Part shown: in pieces, positions 7,069-53,630 of the stretch
How the letters are laid out: each line of letters starts with the position of its first letter
How positions within the stretch are numbered: position 1 is the stretch's first letter
Sequence record: MZ501067
Direction: 5' to 3' (one strand)
DNA: 64,000 nucleotides
Origin: Escherichia phage FriedrichZschokke
Program-made: the position numbers and the translations under genes
The notes under the pieces: generated by a model
The model's input: the letters and a program-made list of their open reading frames with translations, nothing else
What the model was told of the DNA's origin: nothing
Database searches by the model: none

Positions 7069-7755
7069 TTAAAAATCGTGGGTAGAATCAGCTTCAAGAG
7101 CTACTACATAATTCGCATGTTCACCTTCAAATTTAGCAGCACCTTGTTTACCTTTTGCCCAGAGCAGAAGTTTATAATTTCCTGGTTGCATTTTCATATT
7201 TGCCATATTGATAATGAAATTAAATGTATTTTCACCATCATAATCACCAAGAGTCAAAGAATATTTAACACGGGTCAGAGCAGAATCTTCTACTTTATTA
7301 AAACCGTTAATTACGATTTTACCTTCTTTTACCGTGATAGCAATTGTATCAATTTGCAGACCACGAGATACACGCAACAGTTGTTGAAGGTCTTCAGCTT
7401 TAATTTCAGTAACAACAGATGCTACCGGGAATGGAATTGGTTTATTAGGAGCAACTACTGTACTCGGATCGGCTGCTGGCCAAAAAATTGTTGAACGGGC
7501 ATCAGCAATTTTAATATTTCCATCTTCTGACTGGGAAATTTCTGCATCATCATTAACTAGAGACAGAATACCGAGAAAACCGTTCAAATCGTAAATTGCT
7601 ACATCAAAATCAATAACGTCAGAAATATTTGCTTCCGCATAAGTTGTACCATTAACTGCGCGAGTCATAATAAATTGACCGGATTTAAGCATAATACCGG
7701 AGTTAATAGTAGCGAAATTTTTAAGCAGAGCAGTAGTATCTTTAGACAGTTTCAT
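7069..7755 (-). CDS. 45: Sliding clamp
   Basis: 228 aa; synteny and sequence match T4 gp45. Confidence 0.93.
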   Translation of the reverse strand: MKLSKDTTALLKNFATINSGIMLKSGQFIMTRAVNGTTYAEANISDVIDFDVAIYDLNGFLGILSLVNDDAEISQSEDGNIKIADARSTIFWPAADPSTVVAPNKPIPFPVASVVTEIKAEDLQQLLRVSRGLQIDTIAITVKEGKIVINGFNKVEDSALTRVKYSLTLGDYDGENTFNFIINMANMKMQPGNYKLLLWAKGKQGAAKFEGEHANYVVALEADSTHDF

Positions 7756-13712: not shown

Positions 13713-13931
13713 TTATTTCTCTAATATAAAATAAAAATCATCATCTGTTAAATGATACCTGTAATTTAATTCTACACCATTAGATTTAAAAGCGGTATCA
13801 TACGGATTTTCTGGATCAATATCAATGTCAAGAGCTAAAACTTCCCTGAGATACATTTTAAGTAAATAGGGAATAGCTTCAACTTCAGGTATTTCTTCCA
13901 AGAATCCGGAGAGGTTAATCGTTAGCCTCAT
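13713..13931 (-). CDS. Hypothetical protein (72 aa)
   Basis: ORF abutting the upstream gene. Confidence 0.5.
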
Positions 13932-14472
13932 ATAAAAAATCCAAACTAGGAGAATCGTCTACAACACTTTTCTTTTCAGCCCCCGGTGTTCTATAGGTTG
14001 ATTCTTCGTAATGCGTCATTTTATCATAGATGTCTTGAATAAAAGTTTCATCTACTAACGCAACCATATCGTCGTCACGGCTGTCATAGACATTGTGAAC
14101 GAAGTAACTATATTTCTTTGCAACTTCCTTACGTTCTTTTTTAATACGCTGGACGAATGCATTAAAACAAGCTTGAGTTATATACGCATGTGGGTTTTTA
14201 TATTTCGTTTCATCAAAATTGTGAAGCCCCTTAATAGAAGCTTCTATACCATCTGCAATCATTTCTTGTTTCCAAGACTGGGTGTATCCTGAAAAGTTGA
14301 AACGTTTAGATAAGCCTTCTGCAATAAGCATAATGGCTAATCCGATAGTATCATTCTGACGAACTACTTTATTTGGGTCTTTATTATTTGCTAATTCTGT
14401 TTTCCAATCAATAATAGCTTGTAAAAGCTCTTTATTGTTTACGTAATTATATTTAGGCTTAGTTTCTGACAT
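13915..14472 (-). CDS. 55: Late-transcription sigma factor
   Basis: Translation [23 protein letters not shown]...; start set at the MSETK Met (185 aa). Confidence 0.9.
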
Positions 14473-14550
14473 TTTCACCTCTTAGCTCAATTCATAGATC
14501 TATTATATCATAATATTTGAAGATCTATCTTAAAGCATAGAGGATATCAG

Positions 14551-40594: not shown

Positions 40595-40595
<1 letters not shown>
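40555..40595 (-). promoter_or_regulatory. Early promoter
   Basis: Minus strand: -35 TTTACT, 17 bp spacer, -10 TAGTAT. Confidence 0.45.
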
Positions 40596-41563
<968 letters not shown>

Positions 41564-49898: not shown

Positions 49899-50004
49899 AT
49901 ATTCCTCATAATGCTTTATAACTGTTGGTGGTATAATGGGTCTAAGTCCCTTCCATTCAATTCCATTTAGAACAAACAATAGAAAAGAATGGAAGATAAT
50001 AGAA

Positions 50005-50829
50005 TTAGATATTTGACCAGACTTTGTTTGCAGAGAAACGTTTTCCTTTTGAAACGAACTGCTGAAGTGGCATTAACACAACGTTCGCCCAGTCTTTCGG
50101 GGCGATTTCAACAAGGCTACCCATAATATTACCAGGTATATATGCCTTAATCATTTGGTCTGCACCCCTAAATCCTTTCACTTGACTCCAATCAATTTTT
50201 AATTTCGTTTTATTAGTAATAGTAGGTGTATTTGCATATTGCTTTAAAAGCTCTTCTAGAAATTGCTGACGAGCTTTAGGTGGAATATAGTGCAAGTTCA
50301 ATCCGTACATTAAGTTATGCTTACCTAAACCAAGATAAATTATCAAAGGAAATTTATCCCAGTAAGGAAGAGTTTCCTTGTGTTTAGCATCATAAGCAAA
50401 AGCATATATTCGTCCCGGCTGCGGGCGAACAACTTTATGTCCTTTTACTTGCTTAATAGTTTCAGCAAACCACTTTCTGGTTTTATTATTAATTGCTGCA
50501 CCTTCATTACGAATTTTATCGCGCAATGTTTGTCTGAATGAATTTATCATAAGCAGTTGTCTTTCTTGCTTATTGAGTTTATTCATTGGTTTTGATTCAA
50601 GCTTTTGAATCTTTTCAGCCGTTTTAATTCCTGAAGCATATTTTGACATTGCTGAAGTAAACGTAGAGTATTTGATTCCTCTTTCTTCAGCAAATTGCTT
50701 TCCTGTCATTCCTTTTGCTTTGGCCTTTTTATATTCAAGACCTATCTGAATCCATTTCTTTTCGTTTAATGATTGCTTAACCTTTGGAACTTGGGGAGTG
50801 CTTTCATTAATTATTTGAAAAATAGCCAT
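50005..50829 (-). CDS. 2: DNA end-protector protein
   Basis: 274 aa; synteny 1-3-2-4. Confidence 0.8.
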
Positions 50830-51281
50830 TATGCCCCCTTAAAGCCAAGAGCTCGTAATCCATCTTCTGTTAGAATTCTAAATTTTATTCCACGCTTTTC
50901 AGCTAAAGCTTGCGCTGCTTTCCATTTGTCGGTATTAACGGAATATGTATAAATTTCATTCATAAATCTTTTCTTCGCTGCGGTTGTTAGATGTGCTGGT
51001 TTAACTGGTGGTTGTGTTTCTTTTTTAGGTTTTATTTCAATAAAAAATTCTTGTCCAGAAGAATCTTTCATCCAAATATCCATGAAGTATCTACGTTTTT
51101 TCCCTTCTGCATTACAAAAATAAGGAATTACTGCTGTTTCACTACCCCATGCAATAATTTCTGGATTTTTATCTAACCATTCAAAAAAGAATTTTTCCCA
51201 ATTTGATCTATACGTAATTTTTTTAGGGTCACCTCTATACTTTGATATATTTTTAGGAACCCATTTTCCAGAATATGCCAT
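50829..51281 (-). CDS. 4: Head completion protein
   Basis: 150 aa; ATGA-type junction with gene 2. Confidence 0.8.
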
Positions 51282-51292
51282 TGGATTCTCCT

Positions 51293-51300
51293 TATAAATA
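51293..51300 (+). promoter_or_regulatory. Late promoter core (TATAAATA) for gene 53
   Basis: Exact TATAAATA 29 nt upstream of the gene 53 ATG. Confidence 0.6.
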
Positions 51301-51307
51301 GATAATA

Positions 51308-51315
51308 TATTTATA
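51308..51315 (-). promoter_or_regulatory. Late promoter core (TATAAATA) for gene 4, divergent from the gene 53 promoter
   Basis: Exact TATAAATA on the minus strand ~27 nt upstream of the gene 4 ATG. Confidence 0.55.
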
Positions 51316-51328
51316 AACAGGAGGGCCC

Positions 51329-51919
51329 ATGCTCTTTACATTTTTTGATCCGATTGAATATGCGGCCAAAACGGTGAATAAAAACGCGCCGACTATTCCT
51401 ATGACAGATATTTTTAGAAACTATAAAGACTATTTTAAACGCGCTCTTGCGGGATACCGCTTACGTACTTATTATATTAAAGGTTCACCACGCCCGGAAG
51501 AATTAGCAAATGCTATATATGGAAATCCGCAGTTGTATTGGGTTTTATTGATGTGTAATGATAATTATGATCCGTATTATGGATGGATTACTTCGCAAGA
51601 AGCTGCTTATCAAGCATCTATACAAAAATACAAAAACGTAGGTGGAGACCAAATAGTATATCATGTGAATGAGAATGGTGAAAAATTTTATAATTTAATA
51701 TCATACGATGATAATCCATATGTTTGGTATGACAAAGGTGATAAAGCTAGAAAATATCCTCAATATGAAGGAGCACTTGCTGCGGTAGATACGTATGAAG
51801 CTGCTGTTCTTGAAAATGAAAAACTTCGTCAAATAAAAATAATAGCAAAATCAGACATCAATTCATTTATGAACGACCTTATACGTATAATGGAGAAATC
51901 TTATGGAAATGATAAGTAA
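51329..51919 (+). CDS. 53: Baseplate wedge protein
   Basis: 196 aa; first plus-strand late gene; synteny 53-5-6-7-8. Confidence 0.9.
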   Translation: MLFTFFDPIEYAAKTVNKNAPTIPMTDIFRNYKDYFKRALAGYRLRTYYIKGSPRPEELANAIYGNPQLYWVLLMCNDNYDPYYGWITSQEAAYQASIQKYKNVGGDQIVYHVNENGEKFYNLISYDDNPYVWYDKGDKARKYPQYEGALAAVDTYEAAVLENEKLRQIKIIAKSDINSFMNDLIRIMEKSYGNDK

Positions 51920-53630
51920 TAACCTTAATTGGTTTGTTGGTGTTGTTGAAGATAGAATGGACCCATTAAAATTAGGTCGTGTTCGTGTTCGTGTAGTTGG
52001 TCTGCATCCACCTCAAAGAGCACAAGGCGACGTAATGGGTATTCCAACTGATAAATTACCATGGATGTCAGTTATTCAACCTATAACTTCTGCAGCAATG
52101 TCAGGAATTGGAGGTTCTGTTACAGGGCCAGTAGAAGGAACTAGAGTTTATGGTCATTTTTTGGACAAATGGAAAACTAACGGAATTGTCCTTGGCACGT
52201 ATGGTGGGATAGTTCGCGAAAAACCTAATAGACTTGAAGGATTTTCTGACCCAACCGGGCAGTATCCTAGACGTTTAGGAAATGATACTAACGTACTAAA
52301 CCAAGGCGGAGAAGTAGGATATGATTCCTCTTCTAACGTTATTCAAGATAGTAACTTAGACACCGCAATAAATCCCGATGATAGACCACTATCAGAGATT
52401 CCAACCGATGATAATCCAAATATGTCAATGGCTGAAATGCTTCGCCGTGATGAAGGATTAAGACTAAAAGTTTATTGGGATACCGAAGGATATCCGACAA
52501 TTGGCATTGGTCATCTTATCATGAAGCAGCCAGTTCGTGATATGGCCCAAATTAATAAAGTTTTATCAAAACAAGTTGGTCGTGAAATTACCGGAAATCC
52601 AGGTTCTATTACAATGGAAGAAGCGGTAGCTTTATTTGAGCGTGATTTGGCTGATATGCAACGTGACATTAAATCACATTCTAAAGTTGGCCCAGTTTGG
52701 CAAGCAGTTAATCGTTCTCGTCAAATGGCGTTAGAAAATATGGCATTTCAGATGGGTGTTGGCGGTGTAGCTAAATTTAACACAATGTTAACTGCCATGT
52801 TAGCAGGAGATTGGGAAAAAGCATATAAAGCCGGTCGTGATTCATTGTGGTATCAACAAACAAAAGGCCGTGCATCCCGTGTTACCATGATTATTCTTAC
52901 GGGGAATTTGGAATCATATGGTGTTGAAGTGAAAACTCCAGCTAGGTCTTTATCGGCAATGGCTGCGACTGTAACTAAATCTTCTGACCCTGCTGACCCT
53001 CCTATTCCAAATGACTCGAGAATTTTATTCAAAGAACCAGTTTCTTCATATAAAGGCGAATATCCTTATGTGCATACAATGGAAACTGAAAGTGGACATA
53101 TTCAGGAATTTGATGATACCCCTGGGCAAGAACGATATAGATTAGTTCATCCAACTGGAACTTATGAAGAAGTATCACCGTCAGGGAGAAGAACAAGAAA
53201 AACTGTTGATAATTTGTATGATATAACCAACGCTGATGGTAATTTTTTGGTAGCCGGCGATAAAAAGACTAACGTCGGTGGATCAGAAATTTATTACAAC
53301 ATGGATAATCGTCTTCACCAAATAGATGGAAGCAATACAATATTTGTACGTGGCGATGAAACTAAGACGGTTGAAGGTAATGGAACTATCCTAGTTAAAG
53401 GTAATGTTACTATTGTAGTTGAAGGTAATGCTGACATTACAGTTAAAGGAGATGCTACCACTTTAGTTGAAGGAAATCAGACTAATACAGTAAATGGAAA
53501 TCTTTCTTGGAAAGTTGCTGGGACAGTTGATTGGGACGTTGGTGGTGATTGGACAGAAAAAATGGCATCTATGAGTTCTATTTCATCTGGTCAATACACA
53601 ATTGATGGATCGAGGATTGACATTGGCTAA
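51903..53630 (+). CDS. 5: Baseplate central spike with lysozyme domain
   Basis: 575 aa; N-terminal OB region, central T4L-like lysozyme domain (MAEMLRRDEGLRLKVYWDTEGYPTIGIGHL), C-terminal beta-helix VxGxxxxx octapeptide repeats. Confidence 0.95.
   Translation: MEMISNNLNWFVGVVEDRMDPLKLGRVRVRVVGLHPPQRAQGDVMGIPTDKLPWMSVIQPITSAAMSGIGGSVTGPVEGTRVYGHFLDKWKTNGIVLGTYGGIVREKPNRLEGFSDPTGQYPRRLGNDTNVLNQGGEVGYDSSSNVIQDSNLDTAINPDDRPLSEIPTDDNPNMSMAEMLRRDEGLRLKVYWDTEGYPTIGIGHLIMKQPVRDMAQINKVLSKQVGREITGNPGSITMEEAVALFERDLADMQRDIKSHSKVGPVWQAVNRSRQMALENMAFQMGVGGVAKFNTMLTAMLAGDWEKAYKAGRDSLWYQQTKGRASRVTMIILTGNLESYGVEVKTPARSLSAMAATVTKSSDPADPPIPNDSRILFKEPVSSYKGEYPYVHTMETESGHIQEFDDTPGQERYRLVHPTGTYEEVSPSGRRTRKTVDNLYDITNADGNFLVAGDKKTNVGGSEIYYNMDNRLHQIDGSNTIFVRGDETKTVEGNGTILVKGNVTIVVEGNADITVKGDATTLVEGNQTNTVNGNLSWKVAGTVDWDVGGDWTEKMASMSSISSGQYTIDGSRIDIG

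What the first reader, a model, noticed from the sequence alone, without database searches (positions are those of the whole stretch)
51281..51329. Back-to-back late promoters at the early/late strand switch
Exact TATAAATA boxes face in opposite directions 7 nt apart (plus 51293-51300, minus 51308-51315), serving gene 53 and gene 4 respectively. This is the point where coding switches from the minus to the plus strand.
Basis: partly seen in the sequence, partly recalled or inferred. Interest (0 to 1): 0.28.

Follow-up and report, generated by a model that had tools for sequence, protein, structure and literature searches.

The report
Face-to-face T4 late promoters, genes 4/53
The two TATAAATA boxes are real and are almost certainly the ordinary late promoters of phage T4 genes 53 and 4, but they point toward each other and cross rather than standing back-to-back, an arrangement already predicted for relatives of T4 and kept in most of them.

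Summary
The window is a T4-type phage (Tequatrovirus). Its 47-nt gene 4/gene 53 intergenic region is identical to T4's. Both exact TATAAATA boxes sit where stated (+ 51293-51300, - 51315->51308, 7 nt apart), at the only strand switch in the window.

They fit the definition of a gp55-dependent T4 late promoter. The octamer is exact, the following segment is A/T-rich, and each box lies 28 or 26 nt from its cognate ATG, the usual T4 distance. Genes 4 and 53 are late at RNA and protein level in T4, and gp55 and gp45 are encoded in the window.

In 29 distinct intergenic sequences, only the two boxes and parts of the two Shine-Dalgarno sites are conserved.

- The boxes face each other. The + box lies next to gene 4 and the - box next to gene 53. 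Both predicted start sites fall in the 7-nt spacer, so the promoters overlap and cannot be occupied together.
- Both flanking units are late, so this is not an early/late boundary.

The pair was already predicted for RB69 (Nolan 2006). No 5'-end data could be reached. Verdict: ordinary and already known. One untested extra: the palindrome may mask the ribosome site of gene 4 on read-through RNA.

The parts
50829..51281 (-). Gene 4 (gp4, head completion/closure protein, 150 aa). First gene of the leftward late unit 4-2-3.
   Evidence: ORF. PHROG head closure, E 1.8e-62. Matches T4 gene 4 at 76885-77337.
51288..51291 (-). Shine-Dalgarno GGAG of gene 4 (CTCC on the + strand), 6 nt before its ATG and 1 nt after the complement of the + box.
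   Evidence: Sequence. The left-hand CTCC block is only partly conserved in the 29-sequence alignment; the consensus line reaches its 70-90% threshold at two of its positions.
51293..51300 (+). Late-promoter box TATAAATA (-13 to -6) of the rightward promoter serving gene 53 and downstream baseplate genes.
   Evidence: Exact match. 28 nt to the gene 53 ATG, the modal T4 distance. ATAAATA is conserved at 90% or more in 29 distinct intergenic sequences.
51301..51307 (.). 7-nt A/T-rich spacer GATAATA holding both predicted start sites (+ strand about 51305-51307; - strand about 51303-51302). It would be melted by either open complex.
   Evidence: The start site is inferred from the box lying at -13..-6 (PMC1524935) and the bubble spanning -12..+2 (PMC7892883). 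Spacer sequence and length vary between phages (6-15 nt).
51308..51315 (-). Late-promoter box TATAAATA (-13 to -6) of the leftward promoter serving gene 4, and probably 2 and 3.
   Evidence: Exact match. 26 nt to the gene 4 ATG. TATTTATA is conserved at 90% or more. No other box with one mismatch or fewer lies directly in front of genes 2 or 3.
51320..51324 (+). Shine-Dalgarno GGAGG of gene 53, 4 nt before its ATG.
   Evidence: Sequence. GG is conserved at 90% or more and the following AG at 70% or more.
51329..51919 (+). Gene 53 (gp53, baseplate wedge subunit, 196 aa). First gene of the rightward late unit.
   Evidence: Pfam Phage_gp53, E 1.9e-103. Matches T4 gene 53 at 77385-77975.
51287..51324 (.). 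Imperfect palindrome: anti-SD, box, spacer, box, SD. RNA reading through it in either direction can fold into a hairpin that pairs the downstream gene's SD.
   Evidence: strand folding gives -10.8 kcal/mol, z -3.65 for the + sense and -13 kcal/mol for the - sense read-through. RNA starting in the spacer folds at only -1.3 kcal/mol.
13915..14478 (-). Gene 55 (late sigma factor gp55), the trans-acting factor that reads the boxes.
   Evidence: PHROG late sigma transcription factor, E 3.7e-69.
7069..7755 (-). Gene 45 (sliding clamp gp45), the activator of late transcription.
   Evidence: Pfam gp45-slide_C, E 1.6e-51, and DNA_PPF, E 8.3e-34.

Best explanation
The 47-nt gap between genes 4 and 53 carries two overlapping gp55-dependent T4 late promoters arranged face-to-face. 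Host RNA polymerase carrying gp55, helped by gp33 and the gp45 clamp, recognises TATAAATA on the non-template strand at -13..-6.

Bound on the + strand box (51293-51300), it should start at about 51305-51307 and transcribe rightward into 53, 5 and the following baseplate genes. Bound on the - strand box (51315->51308), it should start at about 51303-51302 and transcribe leftward into 4, 2 and 3.

Each box lies at +3..+10 of the other promoter, and both open complexes melt the same 7-nt spacer. Only one polymerase can therefore occupy the site at a time, and the two promoters fire alternately. The crossing follows from fitting two canonical box-to-ATG distances (26-28 nt) into 47 nt.

Shown here: the sequence, its geometry, its conservation, the spacing statistics, the presence of gp55 and gp45, and the late expression class of the T4 orthologues.

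Inferred: the exact start sites, mutual exclusion, and dependence of genes 2 and 3 on the leftward promoter.
For: - The boxes are exact and the intergenic region is identical to T4's.
- The definition is met. The octamer lies at -13..-6 (PMC1524935). The segment after the box is A/T-rich, 6 of 7 on both strands (PMC2988020). gp55 flips A-12, A-9 and the base at -8 (the third A of the box), and the bubble spans -12..+2 (PMC7892883).
- The box-to-ATG gaps of 28 and 26 nt equal those at T4 genes 20, 22, 24, segE, inh and alt (27-28 nt), and are close to gene 9 and the distal gene e box in the window (24 and 26 nt).
- The layout recurs across lineages. The same crossed layout is found in Mosig-, Dhaka-, Kanagawa-, Braga-, Lazarus-, Karam- and Tegunavirus. 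It is present in 44 of 68 distinct IMG/VR gp53-upstream sequences, with spacers of 0-15 nt.
- Only the functional elements are conserved. In a MAFFT alignment anchored on the two start codons, only ATAAATA, TATTTATA and parts of the two SDs are conserved.
- Nolan et al. 2006 independently predicted Pl:80613(+) and Pl:80684(-) in RB69. These bracket its 4/53 gap with the + model on the left.
- T4 genes 3, 4, 53 and 5 are late at transcript and protein level (PMC9697503 Table S2).
- gp55 and gp45 are encoded in the window.
- There is no sigma-70-type match at the site.
Against: - No primary 5'-end data for this site could be reached. The TSS table of the T4 dRNA-seq preprint is not held and the T4 GenBank records carry no promoter features.
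- Geiduschek and Kassavetis warn that not all listed T4 late sites have been shown to be active in vivo.
- TATAAATA is not over-represented in this AT-rich window, and 5 of the 11 copies lie inside ORFs, so the octamer alone proves nothing.
- RB43/Slopekvirus-like, Aeromonas and Schizo-T4 phages lack the pair.
- The base predicted at +1 is T on both strands, so the real starts are probably at adjacent A residues.
Confidence: 0.88

Rival explanations
1. Only one box is a working promoter. The other is kept as the complementary arm of an inverted repeat, either an RNA hairpin or a protein site, and its gene is transcribed from elsewhere.
For: The two boxes are reverse complements, so a selected hairpin would generate the second box automatically. 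Read-through RNA folds at -10.8 to -21 kcal/mol in several phages. In Krischvirus the right-hand box is degenerate (TATTTATC).
Against: - Both boxes sit at the canonical 26-28 nt from their own ATG.
- No other box with one mismatch or fewer lies in front of genes 4, 2 or 3. None lies between the junction and gene 53, and nothing on the + strand lies upstream of it.
- Both genes are late.
- The spacer varies from 6 to 15 nt while both boxes stay exact. A stem would tolerate compensatory changes, and none are seen in the boxes.
Confidence: 0.06
2. The palindrome is mainly an operator for a DNA-binding protein. One candidate is T4 DsbA, reported to bind A/T-rich sites overlapping two late promoters.
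For: The region has near-dyad symmetry. The review says DsbA sites overlap two late promoters (PMC2988020). The T4 record notes that DsbA 'facilitates transcription from some late promoters'.
Against: Which promoters DsbA binds could not be established here. Its affinity is reported as micromolar and the gene as non-essential. The variable spacer length of 6-15 nt fits poorly with a fixed dimeric operator. The conserved letters are exactly the promoter octamer.
Confidence: 0.03
3. It is a chance A/T-rich palindrome with no function.
For: The octamer occurs at the chance rate in the window, 11 against 10.6 expected.
Against: The pair arises in 6.5e-5 of shuffles of the spacer itself. Both boxes are conserved in genera whose flanking intergenic sequence has diverged.
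Confidence: 0.02
4. These are sigma-70 early promoters or MotA-dependent middle promoters that use TATAAA as a -10 hexamer.
For: TATAAA matches TATAAT at 5 of 6 positions.
Against: The consensus scan reports no -35/-10 pair at the site. I saw no MotA box (TGCTT) about 30 nt upstream on either strand when reading. Early and middle transcripts all have one polarity, so the + box could not be one. Genes 4 and 53 are late.
Confidence: 0.01

Closest known systems
Bacteriophage T4 late promoters (gp55/gp33/gp45-dependent; TATAAATA at -13..-6)
   Same: The octamer is exact on both strands and the downstream segment is A/T-rich. No -35 element is needed. The distance to the start codon is canonical, the downstream genes are late virion genes, and the phage encodes gp55 and gp45. 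Equivalent sites were predicted in RB69 by Nolan et al. 2006.
   Different: Nothing differs in kind. The only peculiarity is that two such promoters interpenetrate, each box lying at +3..+10 of the other.
Other divergent late junctions of T4: inh/segE and 26/51
   Same: inh/segE has the same face-to-face layout: TATAAATA, 6 nt, then TATTTATT, with gaps of 28 and 27 nt to the ATGs. The intergenic regions at all three junctions are 47-50 nt long.
   Different: 26/51 uses the opposite, back-to-back layout with boxes overlapping by 4 bp (TATTTATAAATA) and shorter box-to-ATG gaps of 17 and 21 nt. Two IMG/VR phages use that layout at 4/53 instead, with a 66-67 nt gap.
Bacterial sigma-70 bidirectional promoters (Warman, Grainger and co-workers; PMC12825309)
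   Same: Both are pseudo-symmetrical short DNA that drives divergent transcription. Polymerase bound in one orientation sterically excludes the other, and competition matters only at high activity.
   Different: In those promoters the start sites lie either side of, or within, one shared -10 element, typically 18, 10 or 23 bp apart. Here there are two separate -10-like boxes, the start sites lie between them, and the transcripts overlap by about 5 nt. The sigma factor is gp55, with no -35 element.
Late-promoter-inside-hairpin translational gating of T4 genes e, soc, 49 and I-TevI (PMC3014915)
   Same: A late promoter lies in the DNA that encodes the 5' arm of a hairpin sequestering the downstream SD. 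Long read-through RNA is masked, while RNA started at the late promoter lacks the arm. The 4/53 palindrome has this anatomy for gene 4.
   Different: Here the 5' arm is the other gene's SD complement plus the other promoter box, so the hairpin may be only a by-product of the symmetry. Neither early read-through into gene 4 nor translational masking has been shown.

Membership tests
T4 late promoter (gp55-dependent) | Octamer TATAAATA (A tolerated at -13) | tested here: met
   Exact on the + strand at 51293-51300 and on the - strand at 51315->51308. Definition from PMC1524935 and PMC2988020.
T4 late promoter (gp55-dependent) | A/T-rich segment immediately downstream of the box (the region that melts) | tested here: met
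   GATAATA on the + strand and TATTATC on the - strand, 6 of 7 A/T each. Criterion.
T4 late promoter (gp55-dependent) | Box placed about one helical turn upstream of a mapped primary 5' end (-13..-6) | not testable with these tools
   No 5'-end data are held. Indirectly, the box-to-ATG gaps of 28 and 26 nt match the T4 mode.
T4 late promoter (gp55-dependent) | Genome encodes gp55 and the gp45 clamp (and gp33) | tested here: met
   gp55 at 13915-14478 and gp45 at 7069-7755. Gene 33 lies outside the window (T4 149193-149531), so it was not seen here.
T4 late promoter (gp55-dependent) | Downstream genes expressed late, dependent on genes 55 and 33 and on replication | tested here: inconclusive
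   T4 orthologues 4, 53, 3 and 5 are late at RNA and protein level (PMC9697503 Table S2). Dependence on 55 and 33 at this site could not be tested.
T4 late promoter (gp55-dependent) | Conserved at the orthologous position in related phages | tested here: met
   RB69 prediction.
Sigma-70-type bidirectional promoter with a shared -10 element | Divergent start sites either side of, or within, one shared -10 element (18, 10 or 23 bp apart) | tested here: not met
   There are two separate boxes 7 nt apart, with the predicted starts between them. Definition. T4 26/51 would fit, with 23 bp predicted.
Gene e-type translational gate (late promoter within an SD-sequestering hairpin) | Hairpin pairs the SD or AUG in upstream-initiated RNA and is absent from late-promoter RNA | tested here: met
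   - strand read-through RNA folds at -13 kcal/mol with GGAG paired. RNA starting at 51303 folds at -1.3 kcal/mol. The same holds in IME08, ZX14 and KARL-1 (-16 to -21 kcal/mol, z -3 to -6).
Gene e-type translational gate (late promoter within an SD-sequestering hairpin) | Early or middle transcripts really read into the gene and are poorly translated | not testable with these tools
   Early genes repEB and repEA lie upstream on the - strand, and no terminator-like site was found between repEB and the junction. However, gene 4 RNA is classed late, and repEA and repEB were not detected.

The most novel reading that the evidence does not exclude
The face-to-face layout may be more than compact packing. 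Each promoter box and each SD complement forms the 5' arm of a hairpin for the opposite gene. The junction could therefore act as a translational gate of the gene e / I-TevI type. RNA reading through from the early repEA/repEB-oriE region would carry gene 4 (or a homing-endonuclease gene inserted at its ATG) with a masked ribosome site. Only RNA started in the spacer by gp55-polymerase would be translated. In addition, the overlap would force strictly alternate firing of the head/tail-completion unit and the baseplate unit.
Probability: 0.25. Interest if true: 0.35.

Novelty: already known. Interest (0 to 1): 0.15.

Why it matters
It matters little beyond correct annotation. The site marks the start of the two divergent late transcription units 4-2-3 and 53-5-6..., next to oriE.

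It gives a clean natural example of two minimal (8-bp) promoters that overlap completely. That could be used to measure polymerase competition in the clamp-activated T4 late system.

Some phage records (a20, IME08) annotate gene 4 and gene 53 starts that overlap and swallow this promoter region. Recognising the conserved layout of SD, box, spacer, box, SD would correct those starts.

Tried and rejected
- Promoter features in GenBank records: T4 NC_000866 and AF158101, the original X14845 entry and VR7 HM563683 carry none.
- Published T4 start-site maps: the dRNA-seq preprint 10.1101/2024.04.04.588121 reports 150 T4 start sites, but the held supplement has no TSS table.
- Papers not held: Miller et al. 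2003 (PMC150520) and Vaiskunaite et al. 1999 (PMC94188). That the T4 late-promoter list includes these two sites therefore rests on my memory only.
- Literature searches for 'gene 53' with 'late promoter', and for cappable-seq on T4, gave nothing specific.
- DsbA lead: which two late promoters it footprints could not be found.
- Sigma-70 or middle promoter reading: rejected (and the sequence).
- The 'terminator-like' hairpin over the gene 53 SD/AUG (51320-51337): -6.6 kcal/mol, z -1.08, not distinguishable from shuffles.
- Enrichment of the octamer in the window as evidence: rejected, 11 against 10.6 expected.

Full report
**Identity of the window.** A 1151-nt query across the site matches 656 phage records, the best at 99.6% (Escherichia phages slur03, slur14 and SholemSchwarzbard, genus Tequatrovirus). 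The order of genes is 1, 3, 2, 4 on the - strand and 53, 5 on the + strand, as in T4. The 47-nt gap between gene 4 and gene 53 is letter-for-letter that of T4 NC_000866 (77338-77384). Window coordinate plus 26056 gives the T4 coordinate. Gene identities were confirmed by profile searches:
- gp53, Pfam Phage_gp53, E 1.9e-103
- gp4, PHROG head closure
- gp2, PHROG DNA end protector
- gp3, Pfam gp19-like tail protein

**The observation.** TATAAATA lies on the + strand at 51293-51300 and on the - strand at 51315->51308, with 7 nt (GATAATA) between the two boxes. Gene 4 starts at 51281 and gene 53 at 51329. All real genes to the left are on the - strand and all to the right are on the + strand. The coordinates, the spacing and the strand switch are therefore all correct.

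**Is it more than chance?** The octamer alone is not enriched: 11 copies against 10.6 expected from dinucleotide shuffles. Placement is what counts.
- Six of the 11 copies are intergenic and lie 13-28 nt upstream of a same-strand start codon: genes 53, 4, 9, gene e (twice) and a small ORF. The Poisson tail for this is about 8e-8.
- Shuffling the 47-nt spacer itself yields both orientations together in 6.5e-5 of 2 million trials.

**What defines a T4 late promoter.** The promoter is an 8-bp TATA box about one helical turn upstream of the start. It is followed by an A/T-rich segment and has no -35 element. About 50 sites are listed for T4, 32 of them perfect. Late transcripts have either polarity (PMC2988020). 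The box occupies -13..-6, and A is often tolerated at -13 (PMC1524935). In the cryo-EM open complex, gp55 flips the non-template A-12, A-9 and the base at -8. DNA is melted from -12 to +2, and gp33 and gp45 sit upstream (PMC7892883).

Both boxes here meet the sequence criteria, and the 7-nt spacer is 6/7 A/T on each strand. The window also encodes gp55 (13915-14478) and gp45 (7069-7755).

**Geometry.** The + box is the left-hand one, 1 nt from the complement of gene 4's GGAG. The - box is the right-hand one, 4 nt from gene 53's GGAGG. The boxes therefore point at each other.

Counting 6 nt from each box gives +1 at 51306 (+) and 51302 (-). Both positions are T on their own strand, so adjacent A residues (51305 or 51307, and 51303) are the likelier starts. 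Three consequences follow:
- Both starts lie inside the spacer, and the two RNAs would overlap by about 5 nt.
- Each box lies at +3..+10 of the other promoter.
- The two melted regions (51294-51307 and 51314-51301) share the whole spacer.

Two polymerases cannot occupy the site together. This is an inference from the published footprint, not a measurement.

**Why the boxes cross.** The distance from box to ATG is 28 nt for gene 53 and 26 nt for gene 4. This equals the modal distance at other T4 late boxes: gene 20, 28 nt; gene 22, 27; gene 24, 27; segE, 28; inh, 27; alt, 28. In the window, gene 9 has 24 nt and the distal gene e box 26 nt. Two units of 8 + about 27 nt cannot fit side by side in 47 nt, so they must interpenetrate.

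**Conservation.** In 16 annotated phages the same crossed layout is present in several genera:
- Mosigvirus, spacer 7
- Dhakavirus, spacer 7
- Kanagawavirus, spacer 10
- a Klebsiella phage, spacer 10
- Bragavirus, spacer 10
- Lazarusvirus of Acinetobacter, spacer 15

Karamvirus and Tegunavirus have the accepted AATAAATA variant on the + side. Krischvirus has TATTTATC on the right.

A profile-guided scan of IMG/VR gave 74 full-length gp53 loci (L023-L096 of the 80 returned) with 68 distinct upstream sequences. Their layouts are:

| Layout | Count |
|---|---|
| Face-to-face pair | 44 |
| Back-to-back palindrome TATTTATAAATA | 2 |
| + box only | 2 |
| Neither box | 20 |

Among the face-to-face pairs the spacers were 7 nt (19 sequences), 10 nt (13), 11 nt (3), 15 nt (3), 9 nt (2), and 0, 6, 12 and 14 nt (one each). 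The 20 sequences with neither box are RB43/Slopekvirus-like, Aeromonas and Schizo-T4 types, several of which have a different gene order.

A MAFFT alignment of 29 distinct gene 4/gene 53 gaps was anchored only on the two start codons. The columns conserved at 90% or more are ATAAATA, TATTTATA and part of the right-hand GGAG. The left-hand CTCC is only partly conserved, and spacer sequence and length drift.

**Prior knowledge.** Nolan et al. 2006 list predicted RB69 late promoters Pl:80613 (+, 80613-80655) and Pl:80684 (-, 80642-80684). These bracket the RB69 4/53 gap (80627-80687). The + model is on the left and the two models overlap at their downstream ends, which is the face-to-face layout. 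The same table contains similar overlapping +/- pairs in RB49, RB43 and Aeh1, and a second RB69 pair at the 26/51 junction. I recall that the T4 late-promoter list of Miller et al. 2003 includes promoters for genes 4 and 53, but that paper is not held, so this is memory and not a tool result.

**Expression.** In time-resolved RNA-seq and proteomics of T4, genes 3, 4, 53 and 5 are 'late' at both levels. Gene 2 is late as protein and 'middle' as RNA, and gene 1 RNA is 'early' (PMC9697503 Table S2). So both units flanking the switch are late, and the phrase 'early/late strand switch' is not apt. No box with one mismatch or fewer lies directly in front of genes 2 or 3. The leftward promoter probably serves all of 4-2-3.

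**Comparison inside T4.** T4 has two further divergent late junctions.
- inh/segE shows the same face-to-face design: TATAAATA, 6 nt, TATTTATT, with gaps of 28 and 27 nt to the ATGs.
- 26/51 shows the opposite design, a genuine back-to-back pair fused into the 12-bp palindrome TATTTATAAATA, with shorter gaps of 17 and 21 nt.

26/51 resembles the sigma-70 bidirectional promoters of Warman and Grainger. In those, a shared -10 element gives divergent starts 18, 10 or 23 bp apart. Polymerase bound one way blocks the other, and this has measurable effect only at high activity (PMC12825309). The 4/53 pair does not meet that definition (two boxes, starts between them), but it should obey the same steric logic.

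**A possible extra layer (inferred, untested).** The elements are mirror images: anti-SD, box, spacer, box, SD. RNA that reads through the junction can therefore fold into a hairpin that pairs the downstream SD:

| RNA | Free energy (kcal/mol) | z |
|---|---|---|
| Window, + sense read-through | -10.8 | -3.65 |
| Window, - sense read-through (covers gene 4's GGAG) | -13 | -1.14 |
| IME08, - sense | -20.6 | -3.62 |
| ZX14, - sense | -15.9 | -2.97 |
| KARL-1, - sense | -21 | -6.08 |
| Window, RNA beginning in the spacer | -1.3 | not significant |

This is the anatomy of the documented gates at T4 genes e, soc, 49 and I-TevI, where early read-through RNA is masked and late-promoter RNA is translated (PMC3014915). 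Early genes repEA and repEB and oriE lie upstream on the - strand, and no terminator-like site lies between repEB and the junction.

Against this reading, the hairpin is an automatic by-product of the symmetry. No complementarity beyond the constrained elements is visible. Gene 4 RNA is classed late, and repEA and repEB were not detected in the RNA-seq. I give this reading about 25%.

**Rivals.**
- A chance palindrome is excluded by conservation.
- A sigma-70 or MotA promoter is excluded by the scan, by polarity and by timing.
- A protein operator such as a DsbA site cannot be excluded as an additional role. It fits poorly with spacers of 6-15 nt and could not be documented.
- 'Only one box is functional' is unlikely. 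Both boxes sit at canonical distance, both genes are late, and neither gene has an alternative box.

**Verdict.** The promoter interpretation is well supported but not proven by 5' mapping. The descriptors 'back-to-back' and 'early/late' are wrong. This is a textbook class of element at a position already predicted in the literature: ordinary, with a mildly interesting geometry.

Noticed in passing
L010:1440-1510, L014:1430-1510, L028, L051, L057, L066 (compare the HEG-free relatives L058, L029, L067): In at least five lineages an HNH homing-endonuclease gene (MDY..HY..L..RA...HHIIPRCMGG) sits immediately left of the junction. In two matched pairs its ATG lies at exactly the position of gene 4's ATG in HEG-free relatives (L028 vs L029, both at 649; L066 vs L067, both at 647). 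The endonuclease therefore inherits gene 4's SD, the leftward late box and the palindrome. T4 segE likewise sits at a face-to-face late junction.
   Followed up: partly
L021:12021-12042 (T4 112021-112042) and L021:16450-16461 (T4 116450-116461): T4 inh/segE has a second face-to-face late pair (TATAAATA, 6 nt, TATTTATT). T4 and RB69 26/51 have a back-to-back pair fused into the palindrome TATTTATAAATA.
   Followed up: partly
window 41103-41110 and 41116-41123 (-): Two tandem exact late boxes lie 13 and 26 nt upstream of the 164-aa ORF 40595-41089. This matches the two published late promoters of the T4 lysozyme gene e and its hairpin gate.
   Followed up: no
window 46852, 47163, 48961 (-); 53730, 60128 (+): Five exact TATAAATA copies lie inside ORFs, 258-1899 nt from the next listed ORF start on the same strand. 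Whether any is an internal late promoter is unknown. They show that the octamer alone is not diagnostic.
   Followed up: no
window 49899-50004 and 50829: No late box with one mismatch or fewer lies directly in front of gene 2 or gene 3, so both probably depend on the gene 4 promoter. The gap between genes 2 and 3 is about 106 nt and unexplained. T4 gene 2 RNA is classed 'middle' although genes 4 and 3 are 'late'.
   Followed up: partly
window 53346-53513 (+): Six copies of a 24-nt-period direct repeat lie inside gene 5, where the translation shows a repeating 8-residue motif near the C-terminus. They lie within about 50-200 nt of the position equivalent to the annotated T4 oriE (79355), which is described as having evenly spaced direct repeats.
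   Followed up: partly
window 51320-51337 (+): A hairpin over gene 53's SD and AUG (GGAGGGC/GCUCUUU) was flagged as terminator-like. It folds at -6.6 kcal/mol with z -1.08, not different from shuffled sequence.
   Followed up: yes
L004:990-2076 (phage a20) and L006:1005-2103 (IME08): The deposited annotations give gene 4 and gene 53 starts that overlap each other and swallow the promoter region (for example a20 head closure at 197 aa instead of about 150). These are probably mis-called starts. RB69 has the expected starts, with TTG for gene 53.
   Followed up: no
L013:1440-1500, L070-L076, L081, L084, L095: RB43/Slopekvirus-like phages have no TATAAATA pair at the 4/53 junction. They carry CCTAAATA on the + strand (the CTAAATA late-promoter variant described for Aeh1) and nothing recognisable for gene 4.
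   Followed up: no
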